In this document: piece after piece, positions 26,680 to 63,383 of the stretch
Layout: each line of letters begins with the position of its first letter
Numbering within the stretch: position 1 is the first letter of the stretch
From: a virus
DNA length: 64,000 nucleotides
Reading direction: 5' to 3' (one strand)
Virus genome (UHGV): UHGV-0214148
Translations under genes and position numbers: made by a program
Notes under the pieces: generated by a model
Seen by the model: the letters and a program-made list of their open reading frames with translations, nothing else
Database searches by the model: none
Told to the model about the DNA's origin: nothing

Positions 26680-27051
26680 TTAAATAACTGTGTTGGGTAA
26701 TGCTTTAATCTGTGTATAACTATCTCCGATACCTCTTATCATTTCCAGACGCTCTTCTGTAGAAAGGCTTTGGTTAATGTCTTTGTCAAGATTGAACAGT
26801 GTCAAGAGTTTTGCAATTGCAACCGTCAAGTTGTCGGACAGCTCGTTGTTTTTACGCCATTCTTCGTTACGGAAAATAGAGATAAGGTCTTTCGCCTGGC
26901 CTTCAGCGTGCGGTTTGGCTAACTGCGCGTCACGCTGTTCGATAAGGTATGCTTCGTTAGTAAGTAAACGTTTCAGGTTTTCTGGGTTAGTGGCAGCGCG
27001 AGTAACGATCATTAATACAACAAACGGGTCTTTAAATAATTCGTTTTTCAT
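26680..27051 (-). CDS. hypothetical protein
   Basis: 123-aa ORF preceded on its sense strand by the conserved ~76-bp leader repeat. Confidence 0.5.
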   Translation of the reverse strand: MKNELFKDPFVVLMIVTRAATNPENLKRLLTNEAYLIEQRDAQLAKPHAEGQAKDLISIFRNEEWRKNNELSDNLTVAIAKLLTLFNLDKDINQSLSTEERLEMIRGIGDSYTQIKALPNTVI

Positions 27052-27057
27052 CTTTAG

Positions 27058-27133
27058 TTCTCCTAAAATGGTTTTCGTTAAGTGAGAGCTTTTGTACTCT
27101 CACCTAAGTAATATATATCTGAAATTATTTTTA
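27058..27133 (-). repeat. conserved ~76-bp 5' leader cassette, copy 1 (hairpin plus AT-rich 21-bp motif)
   Basis: Nearly identical to 63307-63383; contains the inverted repeat GTGAGAG/CTCTCAC (27082-27103) and TAAGTAATATATATCTGAAAT (27105-27125), directly upstream of the 26680-27051 start. Confidence 0.6.
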
Positions 27134-27144
27134 ATATTAACGAA

Positions 27145-27178
27145 CAAAAAAATAAAAGGTGGGGGTAAACCCCCACCG
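27145..27178 (-). terminator. rho-independent terminator
   Basis: GGTGGGGG-TAAA-CCCCCACC hairpin followed by a T-run on the minus strand after the 27182-27760 stop. Confidence 0.7.
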
Positions 27179-27181
27179 ATG

Positions 27182-27760
27182 TTATACATCGAACCGATAC
27201 TGCCGGGAGTTAATGAGGAATTCGGTATTCAGCTCAATCCATTCGAGTAAATCACCCAACGGTAATCGGTTTGGGTTTTCTAACTCAATAGACGCTACCG
27301 GATAAGAGTTTACTAATTCCGTAATTGTATCAATACCCTCTTGCGTTCCATCGTCTTCTAAGGTGATTGTAAACGGCATATCGGTACGATCCGCATTAGG
27401 ATTGTACAAACTGACTTTTGTTGCTTGGACAAACGCAGACAGGTCGTCACGTATAATGCGTGTATCAGGCGATAGAACTACCCAGAGATGCTGCCCTGGC
27501 TGGAGTTTACGTTTTGCGTAGTTTAAGAAAGGACTTGCCATCAAGTTTTCCAAACCACAACAGATGCTACGTAACTGTATTCCGCGCGGATCTCGGTAAT
27601 CCACATCGAAAATTCCCACAGGTTCATTCGCTGCCTGTTTTATCAGAAAGGCCAATACCGTGTCCGCTCTTTCTGGTAAGGAAAGCTCTATTCCCTCAAG
27701 CTCCCCATCGACGAGATTTTCTAACCAAACGTCTTTTCGCATTTCTATTAATCGGTACAC
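27182..27760 (-). CDS. hypothetical protein
   Basis: 192-aa ORF. Confidence 0.5.
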   Translation of the reverse strand: MYRLIEMRKDVWLENLVDGELEGIELSLPERADTVLAFLIKQAANEPVGIFDVDYRDPRGIQLRSICCGLENLMASPFLNYAKRKLQPGQHLWVVLSPDTRIIRDDLSAFVQATKVSLYNPNADRTDMPFTITLEDDGTQEGIDTITELVNSYPVASIELENPNRLPLGDLLEWIELNTEFLINSRQYRFDV

Positions 27761-30377: not shown

Positions 30378-31112
30378 TTACGCGGTTTTAATTAGCAGCA
30401 GATAGCCCTTCGTAATCTCAGCACAACTCCACCCTTTTACGGCAGCGACACCACGAAGGTAATTTTCTGTGTGATACTGTAAAAACGGATCGTCTGGATT
30501 AATCTCAACTAGGTGAGTGGCTTTAGAAATCGTTTCCGCCTCTGGGATTTGTTTTGTTAAGCCTGATGCAATCAGTTCAATAACGCGGTATCCCTCTAAC
30601 CAAGAAACATAGATACGTAAACCGTATAACTTACCGTTATCTTTTAAGGGATAAAGACTGATGCCCCGGCCGAGCAACGTTAATTCTACATCAGTGGGAA
30701 GGTTTTCTACATGCTTGATTAACCCTACCCCATGTCTAAACAGTGGGAAGTAAGAGTATAGCGTCAGCATACTGCTTCCTCCAATAAACGTAACATCGGA
30801 AACGGTAGGCGTGCTGGCAATGAGGCGAACATGTTCCGCTACGACTTCAAGTTCGGCGTCACTGATCAATTTATAGAATAAAATGACGCTGGTTTCGGTA
30901 TTAAGAACAAAGAAGAACCGGTTGGCGTGACTGCTTATCGTGTATTCGTCAACCATGCTGTCGATAACGTCACTGTCTGGATAATCTTCGGGTTTAATTG
31001 TTTCAGCAGAGACTAACTTAGCAGGTTGGGATTGCCCTATTAGTTCATTAACCACCGTAGAAGAAAGTTCTAAACTGGTGTTAGTAAAGATATCGTCTAA
31101 TAATTCACTCAT
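30378..31112 (-). CDS. hypothetical protein, possible distant member of the same paralog family
   Basis: C-terminus KGWSCAEITKGYLLLIKTA is similar to the GW...QLLF motif. Confidence 0.45.
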   Translation of the reverse strand: MSELLDDIFTNTSLELSSTVVNELIGQSQPAKLVSAETIKPEDYPDSDVIDSMVDEYTISSHANRFFFVLNTETSVILFYKLISDAELEVVAEHVRLIASTPTVSDVTFIGGSSMLTLYSYFPLFRHGVGLIKHVENLPTDVELTLLGRGISLYPLKDNGKLYGLRIYVSWLEGYRVIELIASGLTKQIPEAETISKATHLVEINPDDPFLQYHTENYLRGVAAVKGWSCAEITKGYLLLIKTA

Positions 31113-31487
31113 GATTTACTCGCTAATCTCAATAAAGGGGAGTCTATTATTATGGATTGTAAAAGAGGTATAAGGAAGTCACTACGTTCCTCTGGGAAGA
31201 GTATGTCGGTATACTACGTATACCTCCGCTATTTATATCCGTATACATAATGCCCCCTACCCCCTACCGGTATCCCGAGTAGCAGAATAAAGGGGCAGAC
31301 TGTAAAATTTTAGTACCTGTTATCGGAAGGTACTAAATGGAGTGTAGTCTTTAAGCCGTTTGAGCAGCTCATTGAGACTTTCTTTCTTTTTAGTAGACAT
31401 GATCTGTCTCCCCAAATGGTTTAATCAATCCGTTTCGAATGAAACGTGTCCGTAGGGGCTGAACTGGCACTTCAGCCCCTATTCACT

Positions 31488-31508
31488 TAAGTAATATATA
31501 TCTGAAAT
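31488..31508 (+). promoter_or_regulatory. third copy of 21-bp AT-rich motif TAAGTAATATATATCTGAAAT, upstream of 31534 start
   Basis: Exact 21-bp match to the motif inside the two leader repeats, 25 bp upstream of a plus-strand ATG; preceded by the hairpin GGGGCTGAA/TTCAGCCCC. Confidence 0.4.
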
Positions 31509-31533
31509 CAATTCCGATCTAAGGAACGTCCCG

Positions 31534-32499
31534 ATGGAGAAATCCAGTGTTGATTTTTTCTCAATTGGTATCGTCGCGGAAGACAAACCCCGTGGTACAG
31601 ATCGGGTAAAAGTGATACCAATTGAAACCAACTTTGCTAACCCTACCGTGGTGCAATCTGTTTCTTCAGCAACTGAAAAGACGCATGAAACGTCTGGCGC
31701 AACAGATAACCTAACCATTAAGACGGGTAACACGATAACAGCAAAGTGGTGGAAGTTTAACTCCAACCGAATTAATTCCCCTGACGTTAAACGAGAAGAC
31801 TACGTTATCTTGTTACGTTTGGGGAAAACCGATATTTATTTTTGGATTGATCTGAACTTCGCTAACGTTAAGCGATTAGAAGATGCGGTTTATGCGTGGT
31901 CGGCTGACCCTGAAAACCAAATGGCGGATGACTTGTCCAATGCGTATGTGTTGAACGTTTCGACGATTGACAAACATATCACGCTAAGAACAAGTATGGT
32001 GAACGGTGAGAAAGCGGCGTGGTTATTTCAGTTTGATAATGCAAATGGCACGTGGCAGTGTGTTGACCACAAAGGGAATAAGTATTACATTAACTCGGTG
32101 GAAGATGATCTCGGGTTTGAGAATGCGATGCTCTCAAAAGTGAACATCAACAAAGAAGATGCGTTCATTTATTCAAAGCGTTCTATTAACCTGGAAACGA
32201 AAACAATTAATGAAAAATGCGAAGTTCGCAATACGGAAGCAGCGAAATCCGTTACGTTTAAAACGCAAACCTGGTTAACGGAAGCAGGGAGTTCGACAAC
32301 ATTTAAAACGCCGAACTTTAAACAAGAAGGGAATGAAGCGATGTTCACCGGTAATCTGGAAATCGCTAAGAACTTCAAATACGGCGGTACGGGTGAAGGC
32401 GTGGGTGTCTTTACGGTTAAAGATGCCGTTATTTCTGGTATTACCTTTAGCGTTCACATTCACCAAGGTAAACATGGCCCGACATCACCTCCGCAATAA
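31534..32499 (+). CDS. hypothetical protein (possible virion protein)
   Basis: 321-aa ORF with SD AAGGAA; Thr/Asn-rich beta-like composition. Confidence 0.5.
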   Translation: MEKSSVDFFSIGIVAEDKPRGTDRVKVIPIETNFANPTVVQSVSSATEKTHETSGATDNLTIKTGNTITAKWWKFNSNRINSPDVKREDYVILLRLGKTDIYFWIDLNFANVKRLEDAVYAWSADPENQMADDLSNAYVLNVSTIDKHITLRTSMVNGEKAAWLFQFDNANGTWQCVDHKGNKYYINSVEDDLGFENAMLSKVNINKEDAFIYSKRSINLETKTINEKCEVRNTEAAKSVTFKTQTWLTEAGSSTTFKTPNFKQEGNEAMFTGNLEIAKNFKYGGTGEGVGVFTVKDAVISGITFSVHIHQGKHGPTSPPQ

Positions 32500-32704
32500 T
32501 TCCCCTTTTTCTTACGTTGTTTTTATATATTGTGACCTGACGTTGGTAAAACTTTTTATCAACACTTTTCTTAAACCCATCGTTTAGTTAAGCAGGCCAC
32601 TTTTTCGCGCACTCTACTCCTCCCTACGGGGAGGAGCTATCTTATGCTTCGGTTGTAACACACGTCGGTCTTAGACCACTAACCTTTTGAAATGGAGAGC
32701 TGTT

Positions 32705-32914
32705 ATGTCTATTAAAGAGTTCTCTTCTGCTGAGCATATTCCAGAAGAGTTTAAGAAAATCGGTAACGTCAGCGCTTTCGGCGATACCGTTGATCATGTA
32801 ACTGGTAAACTGGCTGCTGAAGCCGAAAAAATTGGCGGCGACGCATTCAAAGTTATCGGTATTTCCGGCAACAACAAACTGCACGGTAACGCGATTGTCT
32901 ACAAAAAAGACTAA
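32705..32914 (+). CDS. DUF1471 (BhsA/YdgH/McbA-like) domain protein lacking a signal peptide
   Basis: 69 aa; EEFKKIGNVSAFGDTVDHVTGKLAAEAEKIGGDAFKVIGISGNNKLHGNAIVYKK matches the enterobacterial DUF1471 pattern. Start at the ATG preceded by GGAGAG. Confidence 0.6.
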   Translation: MSIKEFSSAEHIPEEFKKIGNVSAFGDTVDHVTGKLAAEAEKIGGDAFKVIGISGNNKLHGNAIVYKKD

Positions 32915-34228: not shown

Positions 34229-34296
34229 AGCTCTTTTCCTCTATAGATTCAAGTCATAGTATGAACTTCGACGCCCACGGATTATAGGAGTAGAGA

Positions 34297-37200
34297 ATGG
34301 CTGTCGTCTTAGACCCACACTTCAAAAAACCGGGGAATAAAATAACCGGTGAAGCGGTCGCCGTCATTGGTACGAAATACCGAATGTTGGTACCTGCCCA
34401 CGCCCCTTTTTTCACCACATCCCTGGTGGTCAAGAGCGGCGGCAAAACACTGACCTTAGGCGACGATTACATTATTACACACCCGTACGAGACCGGTATG
34501 TTGCGCACAGCCTATCTCATTCACGGGATGATTTGGATTGTTAATGACAAATACAAATCGAATTTTACGGTAGATTACCACGCCGTTGGTTGTGGTCAGG
34601 CTACCCAACAACAGATTACCGCAGAACGCGAACTCAATAAAGATAAATACCCGACTACGTGTCAGTGGGACACCGTCATCGGGGACGTTTACTTTCCGCC
34701 GGTCGATATCCAGTTCGATTGGGAGAATTGGAAAGGTGAACTGGAATTAATGCAGGCTATTGCTGGATTAGGCGATTCGTTAGGGGAAGTCGTGAGTCGA
34801 CTTAACCCCATCGCACGCAATACCCTGGATTTAGAATACCGTGCTAACAGCAAGGTTATCACTTCCGAGCAGTATGCCGCATACGACAATAAAGGTGGGT
34901 TCACCTACAACACTACCCGTCATCGTTATAGCTTGAGTTATAAAACTGCAACCTTTAACAACTACGCCCTGTCAGTGAAACATAGAATTCCTGCTATTCT
35001 GCCAGACATGACGAAATTGAATCCAAACGAACAGATCGATTGGATGCTCTGTTATGCTAACGGCGGGGCAAGTATTCTACGGCTGCAGCTAAAACAGCGC
35101 AAAATCTCACTGGTCTTAACGGTCGCTATTGGTAGCGGTTCAACAAACTACGATTATACGTTAATCAACGGTTTAACTGACGATGAGTTAAAAAACGATA
35201 TCGATTTTAGTGTAACCCGTCAACCCGGAAACGGTGTTTACGTCATCGTAGTAAAAACAAATAAACAGACCATGGATTATACATTCAATGTCGATACGCC
35301 ACCTGATGAGTTCTCGGCAGGGTATTCGAAAACGGATGTTGCTAAATGGTTGAAGTCTAAAACGAACATTAACCTGAACTGGTATGCTGGACAAAAAGAT
35401 TATGTTCAAATTCGTTCTTTACCCGGTGCACCAGAACCTGACGTCGATAACGATGTTTACCAGTTAATAGTTAAATACCATCAATTAGTTGAGCAGCTGT
35501 ATCGTAACGCGCCTGCACACGAACACGTTACACGTAAGGACAACCCGCACACCGATACGTGGGGCCCGATCCGTGCGTTACAGCTGAATGGTATTGCGTC
35601 GGATGCCGCGTTAGCTTACGGGAAAACGAAACAACAGTTAACGGATTATGTTAATGCTAAGTACCCAACACAAGCAACGTTAACCGCACAGAAAAAACTG
35701 CTTCGTGAATCGGCGAACAAGAACGTTAACGGCACGATTACCACACTTCCGGGTTTTACTTCGTTCACGACGGAAGTTGATCCGGTTTCGATGTCGAAAT
35801 ACGTGAGTCCTCGTTTTAGCGAAAGCTACGTTAGTAATGGTCACAGGTATCACGGTGCGCTTCGTTACACAGGAACGAAGAGTGGATTCGCCACTTCTTT
35901 TAATGCGGTACCTGCCAACCTGCAAGATATTGACTTTATTGTTACCGGACGTAAAACAGCGTCTGGTAATGAAGCTGTCGGTACGGTTAGCCTACGTTTC
36001 TATCAGAAACCTGGTACTAACTCTGGAAAATTTATCCAGCTTACAGGTGAAATTTCTGCGGGTAAAGTCGGCGTTAAGTTGGAACTGAACGGTTTTTCGA
36101 ATACCACACCGGAAGTTCAGTATCTTTCCCAAGCCCCTAATCCAGCAATACCGGATGGGGATTTTACTCTGCGTTTTCAACTGAAACGCACAGGGAACGT
36201 GTTTGATGTCGTTATTACCATAAACGGCAAGACATACAGTGCACGTGTTAACTTCACTAACATGGACGCTGCACTAGAAGCATTGGAGAATAGCCACCAC
36301 TTTAAATCATTGATCAGTAATGTTGCTGACAACGTCACTATTAGCTCGGGGAATAAAGGTAACACGGTTACCATTAAGAAAGCGCCCGACGTCGTTGACG
36401 GGACCCGTTTAGGTGCCCAGTTTGTCGTTGACCCGAAATCCATTAAGTTTATTGGACAAGGTTCAACCGAGGTTAATGCGGGGAATAACCCTGTAACGTT
36501 TCAAGCAGGTACTAACCAACTTATATTGTATCCTGATGATCGTGGGTTACAGTGGCGTGGTAAGAAACTCTTAGACCCCACTACCGTGGCTCCGTATCTG
36601 CCAGGCAATACCGCGGGCGGTACGGGATTATTCTACGGTACATCTACAACCACGGTAGAGCTTACCGGTAGCGGGATAAAAGCATCGCCGTTCGTAGCGA
36701 CTTTTATTCTCCCTACCGCGACCGATACAACAGCCCTGGCAGCTTGGCAGTTGACCGATGAGTTTGGTACCGCTGAAAACCTTGCAGCAACGCCAGCACT
36801 GATTGAAAAACTCGATGCGGAGTTCACCGGTAAATTAGTTGCGGTTAAATCGTACATTAACGACATGCAACTTACCAGCTCGGTCACTATCGACAAAATT
36901 ACCTTTGGTTTAGGTAACGTTGCGAATACACCCGATGTCAATTTACCGATTTCTACAGCACAACGTGCGGAGTTAGATAAATACTCGCCTAAAGTTCACC
37001 AACACCCGTTTACCGCTTTTGGTACTGGGAACGCAACCACAGCGAAACGTGGTCTGATTAAATTTGGTCTGGATGTGGATGATGCGACTTTAGCACTCGA
37101 TGGGAGTGTGGTAATGGCGCAGACTACCCAGATTGAAAAATTGGAAAGTGCTGTCGGGGGTGTTGACTCGGAGGCACGTCTCGACATTATACGTTTTGGT

Positions 37201-38619
37201 AAGTCTGGTAACGACTTAATTGATGTTACGGTCAAAGACAAAATACTGGTTACACTTCCAGCATCAACGTATTTTATCGGTGGCGAAACATACACCGTGC
37301 CGTTGACGACGATTAACGTCAGTGAACGTTTTCCGAAGTTGAATACAGAAATCTACGCGGGGATTTTTGTTGATATTGTTGACAACAAAGCGAAGTACAT
37401 TATTCACGACAGCTACAGTCAAGCTGAAACGGATACCATGACGCGTGTGGGATTAATCGGCGTCAATGACCTTTCTGAAGTGTTCGTTACAGAGATGCGT
37501 AACGTCACACGGCTGGACGATTTCCGTGAACTGAAAGATCACGCTGCTGACGATAACGCGCATATTCACCGCTCCACGACACGTGCAGTGCTTGGGTTAG
37601 CTAACTTAACGGTAGGTGCGCCCTGCTGGGCTTCGGGACTCCAGGCAGTAGTACGTGGTGAAGCAGATTGGCGTTATGTCGTCGGTGGACAGTATAGAGC
37701 CTTAGACGGGGTGAAATACGACCAGCTCGCATCAAAGTGGGTTTTCGATGCGAAAGGGGTAAGTGATAACCTTCATGGTTTTATTCACAACTTATTCCCG
37801 ACTTTCAAAAACGCAGGAATGCGGGTAAGTTGGGAAACAGAAAGCAACGCAAAAACCGGAACAGTGTTAGAAACTGTTTTAGGTTGTTGGAAGAACACCG
37901 ACGGCGAGTTTATGCGGTTGTCATTACTCATCACTCGCGGTTATCGTTTAACTGACAGTAACGGTGAATATTGTTACGCAGGGTTCGGTTTGAACTTCGG
38001 TAGCGGGAAATCGGTAGTGGTAGGTTTCACACCAACGAAGCGTGTTACAGCTGCACCGTGGAGTTCATTACAACCTGACGTAACGTTTACCCACACCCGT
38101 GGTGCAAACAACGCAATAACGTTTAATGCATCGCTGACTTTAGCTGGCACTGTGTATACTATCGTGGTGTTTTTATCCGCGACAGATAAATACGTAAGCT
38201 GTACGGCAGCAGGGGGAACTACGCAGAAAATCCCATTAGCCGACCGTTTAACCGGGTTCAATATCGAACCTATCGTTAACGATCCGTATACCCCTATTTA
38301 CTACGGTTTAGGGGGACTTTATGAGGATGAGGTTCGTGCCAACATCCGCTCTACAGCAGACAGCGCAACTGCGAACAAAGTCTACGGTACGTTGTTGGAC
38401 TATGTTAGCAACTATTCCTCATTAAATCGAGTACGCGTCATGGAATTGGCCGGTGTCAGCTCAGACCCCGAAACGCTTAATGCGTTAGTGGCAACTGAAT
38501 TTAATAACAGCCTGGCGGATTACGCTGCGTTACCGATACCTCCTTATCTTAACAAGGAGCGCGTAATGTCGTTTATCGACACCAACAATAAAGTGCAGGC
38601 GGTAATCATTCGCGATTAA
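34297..38619 (+). CDS. large fiber-like virion protein 1 (putative tail fiber)
   Basis: 1440 aa, Thr/Gly/Asn/Val-rich. Shares with the next three genes an N-terminal pattern PF[FY]...V....G.DY..[LI]. SD TAGGAG precedes the ATG. Confidence 0.55.
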   Translation: MAVVLDPHFKKPGNKITGEAVAVIGTKYRMLVPAHAPFFTTSLVVKSGGKTLTLGDDYIITHPYETGMLRTAYLIHGMIWIVNDKYKSNFTVDYHAVGCGQATQQQITAERELNKDKYPTTCQWDTVIGDVYFPPVDIQFDWENWKGELELMQAIAGLGDSLGEVVSRLNPIARNTLDLEYRANSKVITSEQYAAYDNKGGFTYNTTRHRYSLSYKTATFNNYALSVKHRIPAILPDMTKLNPNEQIDWMLCYANGGASILRLQLKQRKISLVLTVAIGSGSTNYDYTLINGLTDDELKNDIDFSVTRQPGNGVYVIVVKTNKQTMDYTFNVDTPPDEFSAGYSKTDVAKWLKSKTNINLNWYAGQKDYVQIRSLPGAPEPDVDNDVYQLIVKYHQLVEQLYRNAPAHEHVTRKDNPHTDTWGPIRALQLNGIASDAALAYGKTKQQLTDYVNAKYPTQATLTAQKKLLRESANKNVNGTITTLPGFTSFTTEVDPVSMSKYVSPRFSESYVSNGHRYHGALRYTGTKSGFATSFNAVPANLQDIDFIVTGRKTASGNEAVGTVSLRFYQKPGTNSGKFIQLTGEISAGKVGVKLELNGFSNTTPEVQYLSQAPNPAIPDGDFTLRFQLKRTGNVFDVVITINGKTYSARVNFTNMDAALEALENSHHFKSLISNVADNVTISSGNKGNTVTIKKAPDVVDGTRLGAQFVVDPKSIKFIGQGSTEVNAGNNPVTFQAGTNQLILYPDDRGLQWRGKKLLDPTTVAPYLPGNTAGGTGLFYGTSTTTVELTGSGIKASPFVATFILPTATDTTALAAWQLTDEFGTAENLAATPALIEKLDAEFTGKLVAVKSYINDMQLTSSVTIDKITFGLGNVANTPDVNLPISTAQRAELDKYSPKVHQHPFTAFGTGNATTAKRGLIKFGLDVDDATLALDGSVVMAQTTQIEKLESAVGGVDSEARLDIIRFGKSGNDLIDVTVKDKILVTLPASTYFIGGETYTVPLTTINVSERFPKLNTEIYAGIFVDIVDNKAKYIIHDSYSQAETDTMTRVGLIGVNDLSEVFVTEMRNVTRLDDFRELKDHAADDNAHIHRSTTRAVLGLANLTVGAPCWASGLQAVVRGEADWRYVVGGQYRALDGVKYDQLASKWVFDAKGVSDNLHGFIHNLFPTFKNAGMRVSWETESNAKTGTVLETVLGCWKNTDGEFMRLSLLITRGYRLTDSNGEYCYAGFGLNFGSGKSVVVGFTPTKRVTAAPWSSLQPDVTFTHTRGANNAITFNASLTLAGTVYTIVVFLSATDKYVSCTAAGGTTQKIPLADRLTGFNIEPIVNDPYTPIYYGLGGLYEDEVRANIRSTADSATANKVYGTLLDYVSNYSSLNRVRVMELAGVSSDPETLNALVATEFNNSLADYAALPIPPYLNKERVMSFIDTNNKVQAVIIRD

Positions 38620-62793: not shown

Positions 62794-63300
62794 TTAAACG
62801 TTGAAGTTAAAACGTACGTCTAAGATATTGGATATAAGATTGAAAAGTTCAACTTTGGTAGCTAAACCGGCTCTTAAGTAAACGTCAAAGCTATCCTTAC
62901 GGAAACTAAATTTAACCGAACTACCTAGCTCCTTTCTGAATTCGTCATAAAGTTCGTACTTATCGACATCCGTTAAGTCTTTATCGAATTCTACCGTGAA
63001 GCGATATTTTTCTTTGGCTTCCATTCCTTTAGTGTAAACCGCACATTTAGCGGTGGTGGTACCGACGATTTCGCACACCATATTGAACATTTCCTCATCG
63101 GTACGTACTGCGGCGGTGTAACCAATATCGATGGAGTCTTTACGGAAACCCATAAAGAACAACGCACCGAAGTGTTTGCGGAAAGCTTTATACAGCGCAT
63201 CTTTTTCATCTTCGGTTAATACGTAGTCCAGTTCAACAGTAAACTTGTAATCTTCTTTAGAAACGAATTCTTTAGCATAATCAACTTTAGTGAAGTTCAT
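62794..63300 (-). CDS. hypothetical protein with internal tandem repeat
   Basis: 168 aa; two ~60-aa internal repeats (YKFTVELDYVLTEDEKDALYKAFRKHFG... and YRFTVEFDKDLTDVDKYELYDEFRKELG...). Preceded by leader repeat copy 2. Confidence 0.5.
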   Translation of the reverse strand: MNFTKVDYAKEFVSKEDYKFTVELDYVLTEDEKDALYKAFRKHFGALFFMGFRKDSIDIGYTAAVRTDEEMFNMVCEIVGTTTAKCAVYTKGMEAKEKYRFTVEFDKDLTDVDKYELYDEFRKELGSSVKFSFRKDSFDVYLRAGLATKVELFNLISNILDVRFNFNV

Positions 63301-63306
63301 GGTATA

Positions 63307-63383
63307 TTCTCCTAAAATGGTTTTTCGTTAAGTGAGAGCTTTTGTACCCTCACCTAAGTAATATATATCTGAAATTATTTTTA
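63307..63383 (-). repeat. conserved ~76-bp 5' leader cassette, copy 2
   Basis: Near-identical to 27058-27133 (one substitution in the hairpin arm, one extra T), directly upstream of the 62794-63300 start. Confidence 0.6.

What the first reader, a model, noticed from the sequence alone, without database searches (positions are those of the whole stretch)
31113..31533. 420-bp non-coding island between divergent operons with multiple structured elements and a tiny ORF
This is one of the few long ORF-free stretches in the window. It contains a long inverted repeat (GGAGGTATA ... TATACCTCC, about 31166-31230), a direct CCCCCTA repeat, a possible 26-codon minus-strand ORF (MSTKKKESLNELLKRLKDYTPFSTFR, SD GGGAGA, about 31326-31406) and a strong hairpin (GGGGCTGAA/TTCAGCCCC) before the 21-bp motif. 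It is a candidate control region or small-RNA locus.
Basis: seen in the sequence. Interest (0 to 1): 0.5.

Follow-up and report, generated by a model that had tools for sequence, protein, structure and literature searches.

The report
Jumbo-phage early leader with conserved RNA
The 420-bp gap in this phiKZ-like jumbo phage is mostly the start of a leftward early transcript (promoter, 5' hairpin, a dispensable 26-codon gene), followed by an unannotated, near-invariant 140-nt element that looks like a structured RNA and is shared by at least seven genera of jumbo phages.

Summary
The window is a phiKZ-like jumbo phage, probably of E. coli.

- **21-bp motif:** it is the family's early (virion RNA polymerase) promoter and points left, away from the baseplate gene.
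- **Strong hairpin:** it is the promoter-proximal 5' stem-loop that follows these early promoters in this phage. It shows three compensatory changes among close relatives and has no U-tract, so it is not a terminator.
- **26-codon ORF:** it has the same promoter, hairpin and RBS layout as two real genes. It survives about 45% nucleotide divergence in relatives. It is deleted in one relative and frameshifted in another, so it is likely coding but dispensable.
- **Long inverted repeat:** it is 8 bp, at chance level, and not conserved.
- **CCCCCTA repeat:** it is the complement of an invariant GGGGGUAGGGGG motif.

That motif lies inside a 140-nt element (31158-31297, minus strand). The element is 94-98% identical in close relatives, more than either flanking gene, and occurs once per genome. 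It is recognisable in Seoulvirus, Erskinevirus, Machinavirus, Wellingtonvirus, Derbicusvirus and Aeromonas phages. One of its hairpins covaries strongly. It matches no Rfam family and has no conserved ORF. It is most likely a structured leader or small RNA. Its function and its own promoter are unknown.

The parts
31482..31508 (-). Early (virion RNA polymerase type) promoter, TTTCAGATATATATTACTTAAGTGAA. The inferred transcription start is about 31487-31483.
   Evidence: There are three exact copies in the window, all on the minus strand, each upstream of a minus-strand ORF. It matches the published early-promoter consensus of phiKZ-like phages, with core TATATTAC (PMC7058600 Table 2; PMC7598289). 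It is conserved in the close relatives.
31453..31481 (-). SL1, the promoter-proximal 5' stem-loop: GGGGCUGAA-gugccag-UUCAGCCCC.
   Evidence: -19.4 kcal/mol, z = -4.4. It is 100% paired in 6 relatives, with 3 pairs changed GC to AU on both sides and no one-sided change. Hairpins of different sequence follow all 8 promoter-like sites in a complete relative genome and the other 2 copies in the window. There is no U-tract on either strand.
31431..31446 (-). SL2, a small hairpin: CGUUUC-auuc-GAAACG.
   Evidence: -6.3 kcal/mol, z = -2.0. The sequence is conserved in 5 of 6 close relatives and lost with the L003 deletion.
31408..31413 (-). Shine-Dalgarno GGGGAG of the micro-ORF, inside AAACCAUUUGGGGAGA.
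   Evidence: The same AACCAUUUUAGGAGA leader precedes the genes at 26680-27051 and 62794-63300.
31320..31400 (-). 26-codon ORF plus stop (MSTKKKESLNELLKRLKDYTPFSTFR). Probably a real, fast-evolving, dispensable small early gene.
   Evidence: The ORF, its ATG and an SD-like sequence are kept in L004, L005, L006 and the E. coli 98232 copy at only 52-58% nt identity. Second codon positions change least, for example 10/7/15 differences by codon position. It carries a 2-nt frameshift in L013 and is fully deleted in L003. It has no PHROG or Pfam match.
31309..31337 (-). SL3, a 10-bp perfect hairpin with the micro-ORF stop codon in its loop, followed by AUUUU.
   Evidence: -10.3 kcal/mol, z = -5.2. 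A comparable hairpin exists in L003, but only a weak one (-4.2) in L004 and L005. It is lineage-specific and its role is unknown.
31158..31297 (-). Conserved structured element, the best candidate for a leader or small RNA.
   Evidence: Covariance model R1 scores it 110 bits, E 3e-22. There is one hit in every related locus and one in a whole 221,873-bp relative genome. It is 94-98% identical in close relatives, against 86-98% for the baseplate gene and 80-86% for the 244-aa gene. No ORF is conserved on either strand. It matches no Rfam family.
31266..31280 (-). P-1 hairpin of the element: ACUCGG-gaua-CCGGU.
   Evidence: Relatives have hairpins here, often with GNRA-type loops (GAAA, GGAA). 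They cannot be aligned in one register, so support is weak: 51% of cells paired in the model-fitted alignment.
31253..31264 (-). Invariant G-tract GGGGGUAGGGGG.
   Evidence: It is present in all 25 distinct copies as GGGG(G)-N2-3-GGGGG. It is unique in the window.
31233..31250 (-). P0 hairpin: UUAUGU-auacgg-AUAUAA, including a G-U pair.
   Evidence: Most lineages have a hairpin here, with per-sequence z as low as -3.6. It is absent in Erskinevirus and Derbicusvirus. It did not align well enough for a covariation test.
31208..31224 (-). P1 hairpin GGUAUAC-gua-GUAUACC, flanked by conserved GCGGA and GAC.
   Evidence: Relatives carry perfectly complementary stems of six or more different sequences. 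89.7% of cells are paired against 60.8% when shuffled. 36 cells changed on both sides against 12 expected. 0 of 500 shuffles reached the observed score, and all slid registers stayed at or below 47% paired.
31159..31192 (-). P2 hairpin GAGGAA-cguagugac-UUCCUU plus tail AUACCUCUUUUAC. This is a terminator-like 3' end.
   Evidence: The loop CGUAGYGAC and the tail (U/C)CCUU(U)AUUC are conserved as far as Derbicusvirus and Aeromonas phages. The stem covaries between relatives: AAGGA/UCCUU in Stratton and GAGGA/UCCUC in Asesino. It is weak in the window (-5.9 kcal/mol) and strong with a U5 run in Caitlin (-17.8). It resembles phiKZ terminator tails.
31165..31226 (.).
   Evidence: It is 8 bp, at chance level, and not conserved. 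One arm is the 5' half of P1 and the other lies in the 3' tail of the element.
31300..31325 (+). Remnant of the baseplate late-promoter region, CTGTAAAATTTTAGTACCTG.
   Evidence: The homologous position in relatives carries CGTAAAAAAG-N-TA(G/C)TATGA, and L004-6 carry CTGTAAATTTTAAGTAATACTATGA. The window lacks the TATG.
27105..27124 (-). Second copy of the early promoter, with a 12-bp 5' hairpin and the same RBS leader, in front of gene 26680-27051.
63355..63374 (-). Third copy of the early promoter cassette, in front of gene 62794-63300.

Best explanation
Read on the minus strand, the gap is the leader of a leftward early transcription unit of a phiKZ-like jumbo phage.

Proposed order of events:
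1. The virion RNA polymerase starts at the promoter at 31508-31482.
2. The RNA begins with a stable 5' stem-loop (SL1), as the early transcripts of this phage do.
3. It carries a small accessory gene of 26 codons with its own RBS.
4. It then runs into a much older 140-nt structured element (31297-31158): an invariant G-tract, a covarying hairpin P1, a conserved loop CGUAGUGAC, and a pyrimidine tail ending in a U-run.
5. It finally reaches the 244-aa gene.

In most relatives the promoter and micro-ORF module is absent, and the element sits about 60 nt from the baseplate gene. I infer that the module was inserted in this clade.

I take the element to be an RNA that acts as a terminated leader or small RNA, like the 5'-UTR-derived small RNAs mapped in phiKZ and 201phi2-1. 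Its 3' hairpin plus U-tract would stop part of the transcripts and so both release a short structured RNA and set read-through into the variable genes to the left.

Shown here: promoter identity by consensus, the structures, conservation, covariation of SL1 and P1, and single copy number.

Inferred only: the transcription start, actual transcription and termination, translation of the ORF, and any function of the element.
For: Promoter: three exact, co-oriented copies against 0 expected. It matches the published early consensus. Each copy is followed by a hairpin, the same RBS leader and an ATG. In a complete relative genome, 8 of 8 promoter-like sites lie on one strand and each is followed by a hairpin.

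SL1: compensatory changes at 3 pairs and 100% pairing in 6 relatives.

Micro-ORF: the ORF, ATG and SD are kept at 52-58% nt identity, and second codon positions change least.

Element:
- It is the most conserved segment of the neighbourhood.
- It has one copy per genome.
- It is found next to the baseplate gene in Seoulvirus, Erskinevirus, Machinavirus, Wellingtonvirus, Derbicusvirus, ChrisDB, Caitlin and two uncultured lineages.
- P1 covaries: 0 of 500 shuffles reach the score, and 6 of 7 pairs changed on both sides.
- G-U pairs and GNRA-type loops fit this strand only, and folds are always more stable on this strand.
- No ORF is conserved.
- In L012 the element is followed by a further hairpin and U-run, and only then by an early promoter.
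- In Aeromonas phages the core lies in an unannotated gap between convergent genes. It is preceded by a promoter-like TATATTATATG and followed by a terminator. The model detects it at E about 0.1 although it was not in the seed.
- phiKZ small RNAs confirmed by Northern blot have the same architecture of promoter, hairpins and terminator (PMC10914365; sequence).
Against: - No transcript data exist for this phage group.
- In relatives that lack the upstream early promoter I could not identify any promoter for the element.
- Whole-element folding z-scores are modest: -1.1 to -2.4.
- Only P1 passes a covariation test. P0 and P-1 could not be aligned in one register.
- The 3' hairpin is weak in the window itself: -5.9 kcal/mol with a U4 run.
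- The better folding on this strand partly reflects its G/U richness.
- The element's tightest synteny is with the baseplate late promoter. That would also fit a DNA-level role.
- The micro-ORF is lost in two close relatives, so it cannot be essential.
Confidence: 0.6

Rival explanations
1. The conserved element works as DNA rather than RNA. It could be an upstream element of the late baseplate promoter, or a replication or packaging signal. The hairpins would then be cruciforms or protein sites.
For: In every lineague except the Aeromonas phages the element adjoins the late-promoter region of the baseplate gene (CGTAAAAAAG-N-TATGA), while the leftward neighbours differ. No promoter for an RNA was found in most relatives. 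The cumulative GC-skew minimum lies at about 30 kb.
Against: - The P1 stem sequence changes freely while pairing is kept, and its flanks, not its arms, are conserved. That is the opposite of a protein-binding palindrome.
- G-U pairs would be A-C mismatches on the other strand and in duplex DNA.
- Other late promoters in the window lack the element.
- In the window clade the element is more than 230 bp from the baseplate gene, and in Aeromonas phages it is not near that gene at all.
- The GC-skew minimum is confounded by the switch in gene orientation at this point.
Confidence: 0.15
2. The 26-codon ORF is not a gene product with its own function. It is either untranslated spacer or a leader peptide whose translation only regulates what lies downstream. 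Its stop codon sits in the loop of hairpin SL3, which is followed by AUUUU.
For: It is deleted in L003 and frameshifted in L013. It evolves very fast. It belongs to no known family. The stop codon lies inside SL3.
Against: - The ORF length, ATG, SD-like sequence and a conserved E-V/L-x-x-L/F-K/R-x-Y-x-P pattern persist across about 45% nt divergence. Second codon positions are the most constrained.
- SL3 is weak in the L004-type genomes that keep the ORF.
- There is no run of regulatory codons.
Confidence: 0.25
3. The strong hairpin at 31455-31479 is a bidirectional transcription terminator or insulator between the divergent units.
For: It is GC-rich, very stable and symmetric, so it folds on both strands.
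Against: - No T-run follows it on either strand. The terminator scan finds nothing in the gap.
- It lies 3-8 nt downstream of the inferred start of a promoter, not after a gene.
- The same promoter-then-hairpin arrangement recurs at all other copies.
- Real terminators in this phage carry a UUUUAUUU tail.
Confidence: 0.07
4. One reading: the long inverted repeat GAGGTATA...TATACCTC and the CCCCCTA repeat are operator-like or structural elements of a bidirectional control region.
For: The RNAfold minimum-energy structure of the window copy does use this long-range helix.
Against: It is 8 bp and at chance level. Its 3' arm mutates without compensation in L013 and L004-6, and it is absent in all distant relatives. 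It competes with P1, which does covary.
Confidence: 0.05

Closest known systems
Early (virion RNA polymerase) promoters of phiKZ-like jumbo phages (phiKZ TATATTAC; extended consensus in 201phi2-1, OBP, N1M2)
   Same: It has the same AT-rich core and the same extended pattern TTTCARR-N-ATATTAY-N5-GTG. It occurs in multiple co-oriented copies in front of small genes of unknown function.
   Different: Transcription starts are not mapped in this phage. Here every copy is followed immediately by a stable hairpin, a feature I did not find described in the papers I read.
5'-UTR-derived and intergenic small RNAs of phiKZ and 201phi2-1, made by termination shortly after a promoter (PMC10914365; PMC11512511)
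   Same: It shares their architecture: a promoter, about 70-150 nt of hairpins, then a terminator with a UUUAU-type tail, upstream of a gene. It is unannotated and is conserved between genera by position.
   Different: There is no sequence or structure homology to the phiKZ loci tested: the PHIKZ221 leader, upstream of PHIKZ302, and the gp181/gp182 junction. It also lies at a different gene. The reported conserved sRNA005 is upstream of the gp182 homologue, not of the baseplate gene.
PeSL mobile regulatory cassettes of T4-type phages (PMC2839356; PMC4122927)
   Same: Near-identical early-promoter-plus-stem-loop cassettes are repeated in front of unrelated small ORFs. Indels between close relatives occur right next to them.
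   Different: PeSLs carry host sigma-70 early promoters and a terminator stem-loop upstream of the promoter. Here the promoter is of the phage-polymerase type and the hairpin lies downstream. Recombination at these cassettes was not tested.
5'-terminal stem-loops that stabilise bacterial and phage mRNAs (for example the ompA 5' hairpin; from my own knowledge)
   Same: A stable hairpin within the first few nucleotides of the transcript, kept by compensatory changes.
   Different: No stability data exist. The exact 5' end is inferred, so the unpaired 5' overhang is not known.
Leader-peptide attenuators
   Same: A short ORF in a leader, with its stop codon inside a hairpin that is followed by a short U-run.
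   Different: There are no regulatory codon runs. The ORF is deleted or frameshifted in close relatives. The hairpin is not conserved where the ORF is.

Membership tests
phiKZ-type early (vRNAP) promoter | Conserved AT-rich core of about 10 nt (TATATTAC) with the extended consensus seen in related phages | tested here: met
   TTTCAGATATATATTACTTAAGTGAA compared with N1M2 TTTCARRYAKATATTATYWAAGTGWA and 201phi2-1 TTTRARR_BTATATTACDWHDGTG.
phiKZ-type early (vRNAP) promoter | Several copies per genome, each co-oriented with and just upstream of a gene or operon | tested here: met
   3 exact copies in the window against 0 expected. 8 sites with up to 4 mismatches in the 221,873-bp relative, all on one strand. 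ORFs start 50-90 nt downstream.
phiKZ-type early (vRNAP) promoter | Transcription start about 10 nt downstream of the core centre; used early, by the virion polymerase | not testable with these tools
   Needs 5'-end mapping in infected cells.
Intrinsic terminator (for hairpin 31455-31479) | GC-rich stem followed directly by a U-run | tested here: not met
   No T-run on either strand. The terminator scan finds none in the gap.
Any Rfam family | Covariance-model match | tested here: not met
   Window 30900-31800 and six related loci, permissive E-value mode: nothing at the element. PGAP leaves the gap unannotated in NZ_CP173450.1.
phiKZ/201phi2-1 5'-UTR-derived small RNAs | A terminator within about 250 nt of a start site, upstream of a coding gene | tested here: inconclusive
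   The 3' hairpin plus U-run is clear in Caitlin (-17.8 kcal/mol, U5) and L012, but weak in the window (-5.9 kcal/mol, U4). The start site is inferred only.
phiKZ/201phi2-1 5'-UTR-derived small RNAs | Homology to a described member | tested here: not met
   Model R1 finds nothing in phiKZ 185-280 kb, which includes the PHIKZ221 leader, upstream of PHIKZ302 and the gp181/182 junction. The 201phi2-1 sequence itself was not examined.
phiKZ/201phi2-1 5'-UTR-derived small RNAs | An abundant short transcript seen by sequencing or Northern blot | not testable with these tools
   I found no transcriptome for SPN3US-like phages.
Structured non-coding RNA (general) | Base pairs kept through changes on both sides | tested here: met
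   P1: 6 of 7 pairs changed on both sides, 89.7% paired, 0 of 500 shuffles reach the score, slid registers at or below 47%. Only this helix passes. P0 and P-1 are inconclusive.
Structured non-coding RNA (general) | No conserved reading frame | tested here: met
   SPN3US, Kwan and Phobos copies have no ORF of 20 aa or more on either strand. Other ORFs are not shared.
Small protein-coding gene (micro-ORF) | Start codon with SD, and the frame kept in diverged relatives | tested here: met
   Kept in the window, L004, L005, L006 and E. coli 98232 at 52-58% nt identity. Lost in L003 and L013.
Small protein-coding gene (micro-ORF) | Codon-position substitution bias | tested here: inconclusive
   Second positions change least (6-7 against 10-15), but only 26 codons and 3 independent sequences are available.
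Leader-peptide attenuator | Conserved regulatory codons or an arrest motif, and an ORF that is indispensable to the switch | tested here: not met
   No codon runs. The ORF is deleted in L003 while the downstream element is intact.
PeSL-type mobile regulatory cassette | Repeated promoter-plus-stem-loop units bordering variable ORFs | tested here: met
   Indels between close relatives abut the cassette.
PeSL-type mobile regulatory cassette | Host sigma-70 early promoter | tested here: not met
   No sigma-70-like site in the gap. The motif is of the phage-polymerase type.

The most novel reading that the evidence does not exclude
The 140-nt element is a new class of single-copy structured RNA shared by many nucleus-forming jumbo phages, with a function of its own rather than a leader role.

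Two concrete possibilities that the data do not exclude:
- Its G-rich transcript (GGGGGUAGGGGG followed by hairpins) forms a persistent RNA-DNA hybrid that primes replication. This would be like ColE1 RNA II, T4 oriF/oriG or mitochondrial CSBII, and would make it the unknown origin of these phages.
- Its conserved SD-complementary tail (GAC-N-(U/C)CCUU(U)A, which is exactly ACCUCCUUA, the 16S 3' end, in Phobos) targets ribosome-binding sites in trans.
Probability: 0.12. Interest if true: 0.8.

Novelty: new member of a known kind. Interest (0 to 1): 0.5.

Why it matters
Gene expression in phiKZ-like jumbo phages runs on two phage-encoded polymerases. Its RNA-level control is almost unexplored outside phiKZ and 201phi2-1.

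This locus supplies three things:
- A clean example of the early promoter with its obligatory 5' hairpin, in an enterobacterial member of the family.
- Evidence that very small early genes come and go next to such cassettes.
- A candidate non-coding RNA family that is more conserved than its neighbouring genes, single-copy, shared across at least seven genera, and absent from Rfam and from all annotations examined.

The element comes with a covariance model, defined coordinates and a testable hairpin. Phages such as SPN3US are available for experiments. If the RNA proves functional, it would be one of the few conserved regulatory RNAs known in this phage family.

Tried and rejected
- **Nucleotide searches of the gap against 50,697 phage records.** No match beyond the coding flank. 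Relatives had to be reached through the baseplate protein.
- **Rfam, tRNA/tmRNA and sigma-70 promoter or terminator scans.** Nothing in the gap.
- **Exact-pattern scan of IMG/VR with GGAACGNAGTGACNTCC.** It returned 7 known relatives and 9 hits that are chance matches inside coding regions.
- **MAFFT plus RNAalifold on the whole element.** This recovers only P1. A model-fitted alignment still pairs P0 and P-1 poorly, and aligning the P0 segment alone gave no consensus. I therefore make no claim for a full secondary structure.
- **Identity with the 'conserved giant-phage sRNA' (201phi2-1 sRNA005, phiKZ upstream of gp182).** It lies at a different gene and the model finds no match in phiKZ. The paper's supplement is not held.
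- **Homology of the 244-aa gene to the leftward genes of Stratton.** None.
- **Second small ORFs across the element (32 aa on each strand).** Not conserved.
- **GC skew as an origin test.** The minimum is near the locus but is confounded by gene orientation.
- **Host mimicry.** The only E. coli hit is a related phage genome deposited as a plasmid.
- **Target search for the conserved loop.** The best complementary site in the window (29444, 12 of 14 bases) is at chance level.
- **One literature search returned nothing relevant**.
Full report
**What the window is.**
The flanking genes place the window in the phiKZ-like, nucleus-forming jumbo phages. ORF 31534-32499 (+) is a baseplate protein (phrog_3216, E 1e-113). 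ORF 34297-38619 is a virion structural protein. By tblastn the closest named phages are Erwinia phages Stratton, phiEaH2 and Asesino (69-73% aa), then Salmonella SPN3US-like phages. IMG/VR holds close relatives: L003 and L013 at 99% aa, and L004-L006 at 94-95%. A 221,873-bp circular 'plasmid' of a urinary E. coli isolate (NZ_CP173450.1) is another close relative, which suggests an E. coli host. The gap itself has no nucleotide match among deposited phages.

**Checking the observation.**
The gap 31113-31533 separates a leftward 244-aa gene from the rightward baseplate gene.
- The inverted repeat is 8 bp, not 9, and about one such repeat is expected by chance (my own estimate).
- Two further hairpins were missed: 31309-31337 and 31208-31224.

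**The 21-bp motif is a leftward early promoter.**
Its 20-nt core occurs exactly three times in 64 kb, always on the minus strand, against 0 expected.
- Read on that strand it is TTTCAGATATATATTACTTA(A/G)GTGA. This matches the published early-promoter consensus of phiKZ-like phages: core TATATTAC, and the extended forms in 201phi2-1, OBP and N1M2 (PMC7058600).
- The reviewed rule is an AT-rich block centred near -10 (PMC7598289). That puts the start at about 31487-31483.
- At all three sites the motif is followed by a hairpin, then AAACCAUUU(U/G)(A/G)GGAGA, then an ATG. The ORFs behind it are two ordinary genes (26680-27051 and 62794-63300) and the micro-ORF.
- In the complete relative genome, all eight sites within four mismatches lie on one strand. 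Each is followed within 1-5 nt by a hairpin of different sequence.

**The strong hairpin (SL1).**
SL1 folds at -19.4 kcal/mol with z = -4.4. It is therefore the 5' stem-loop of the early transcript. Among six close relatives it is always fully paired. Three different pairs have switched GC to AU on both sides, and there are no one-sided changes. It has no U-run, so it is not a terminator. These repeated promoter-hairpin cassettes in front of unrelated small genes recall the PeSL cassettes of T4-type phages (PMC2839356, PMC4122927), although the promoter type differs.

**The micro-ORF.**
- In L004, L006, the E. coli copy and L005 this stretch is only 52-58% identical to the window.
- A 25-codon ORF nevertheless starts and ends at the same places, preceded by an SD-like sequence.
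- The peptides are similar: MSTEKKSGLDEVIELFKRYNPAIPR and MFAEQKDGIEEVVRLFRHYSPYLPR.
- Second codon positions change least.
- L013 has a 2-nt deletion in an A-run, and L003 has lost the ORF entirely.
- It belongs to no known family.
I read it as a real but dispensable, fast-evolving early micro-gene. A purely regulatory or untranslated role is not excluded.

**The conserved element.**
This was the unexpected part. Downstream of the ORF, 31297-31158 (minus strand) is 94-98% identical in all close relatives. The baseplate gene is 86-98% identical and the 244-aa gene 80-86%.

The same element sits next to the baseplate gene in many phages: Stratton/phiEaH2, Asesino, SPN3US, SPAsTU, pEa_SNUABM_29, _43, _6, _4 and _9, ChrisDB, Caitlin, Kwan, Phobos, Derbicus and two uncultured phages.

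Common plan, 5' to 3':
1. A small hairpin, often with a GNRA-type loop.
3. A variable hairpin P0.
4. GCGGAGG.
5. Hairpin P1.
6. GAC-N-(U/C)CCUU(U)AUUC.
7. A U-run.

The window and Erskinevirus carry an extra unit with the conserved loop CGUAGUGAC. Phobos and Derbicus have a minimal version.

Evidence on structure and copy number:
- P1 has six or more different, perfectly complementary stems. 89.7% of cells are paired against 60.8% in shuffles, and 36 cells changed on both sides against 12. No shuffle in 500 reaches the score, and slid registers stay at or below 47%.
- A covariance model finds exactly one copy per locus. It also finds one copy in the whole 221,873-bp relative (E 3e-22; the next hit has E 1.2).
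- No ORF is shared.
- Rfam has no match.
- PGAP leaves the gap blank.

**RNA or DNA?**
These points favour an RNA read leftward:
- The stem sequence is free while the flanks are fixed.
- G-U pairs and GAAA/GGAA loops make sense only on this strand, and folding is consistently better on it.
- The 3' end looks like this family's terminators, a stem followed by a UUUAU-type tail. Compare the phiKZ gp181/182 junction and the Northern-validated 141-nt phiKZ RNA upstream of PHIKZ302.
- In L012 the element is followed by another hairpin and U-run before an early promoter.
- In Aeromonas phages (Ferozepurvirus) the core lies in an unannotated gap between convergent genes, behind a promoter-like TATATTATATG and ahead of a terminator. 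It is far from the baseplate gene. The model detects it at E about 0.1 although it was not in the seed.

These points count against:
- There are no transcript data.
- No promoter is recognisable in most relatives.
- Whole-element z-scores are modest.
- Only one helix has statistical support.
- The tightest synteny is with the late-promoter region of the baseplate gene, which keeps a DNA-level role alive.

**How the region most likely works.**
- Shown: promoter identity by consensus, the structures, conservation, covariation and copy number.
- Inferred: early transcription starts near 31485. The RNA is protected or marked by SL1, expresses the micro-gene, and crosses the ancient structured element. 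The element's weak terminator releases some short RNA and lets the rest reach the 244-aa gene.
- In other genera the element is a unit of its own. The promoter and micro-ORF module was probably inserted between it and the baseplate gene in this clade.

**Open points.**
- The leftward genes are not homologous between genera.
- Late promoters elsewhere in the window read TA(C/G)TATGA. Relatives have this motif between the element and the baseplate gene. L004-type genomes keep it at the position equal to 31300-31325.
- The window, L013 and L003 lack any TATG upstream of the baseplate gene, so how that gene is transcribed here is unexplained.

**Comparison with what is known, and verdict.**
The promoter is a member of a known class. 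The 5' hairpin rule and the micro-gene are ordinary, if not previously described for this clade. The element is not homologous to the phiKZ or 201phi2-1 small RNAs tested, nor to any Rfam family, but it is built like them. I file it as a new member of a known kind, with moderate interest.

Noticed in passing
NZ_CP173450.1 (loci L046-L051), whole record: A 221,873-bp circular 'plasmid' of urinary E. coli strain 98232 is a complete phiKZ-like jumbo phage genome closely related to the window. This points to E. coli as host. It also suggests either a carrier state or a co-assembled phage.
   Followed up: partly
window 27040-27128 and 63290-63378 (minus strand): Two early-promoter cassettes are almost identical over about 75 nt: promoter, 12-bp 5' hairpin and the AACCATTTTAGGAGA leader. 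They stand in front of unrelated genes and are possible recombination cassettes.
   Followed up: partly
window 31300-31533 (+): No TATG late-promoter motif lies upstream of the baseplate gene in the window, L013 or L003. Relatives have one. L004-type genomes keep it about 230 nt upstream, which would give a late leader antisense to the early micro-ORF unit.
   Followed up: partly
window 34229-34296: Back-to-back late-promoter-like motifs (CATAGTATGAAC and CATACTATGACT) lie between two divergent virion-protein genes. A further CTGTAAAAAGACTTTACTATG lies upstream of 3941 (+).
   Followed up: no
window 32500-32686; L012 4013-4137: There is a second gene-free gap between the baseplate gene and a BhsA/DUF1471 gene (32687-32914, PF07338). 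It is also a gap in relatives. In L012 it gives a sub-threshold Rfam U6atac hit (25 bits, E 0.022), which is probably spurious.
   Followed up: no
window 62794-63300 (minus strand): The early gene behind the third promoter copy has a just-sub-threshold Pfam match to an NTF2-fold immunity protein (Imm-NTF2, 23.8 bits against a cut-off of 25).
   Followed up: no
window 27150-27190 (minus strand): A strong intrinsic terminator, GGUGGGGG-uuua-CCCCCACC followed by UUUUAUUUUUUU, lies directly upstream of an early promoter. This gives a terminator-then-promoter pair like the PeSL units of T4-type phages.
   Followed up: no
L044 591-822 (Aeromonas phage AVP1): In AVP1 a putative HNH endonuclease gene is inserted just after the terminator of the element-containing gap. 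In pAEv1810 and ACP1 the gp182-like gene lies at that position.
   Followed up: no
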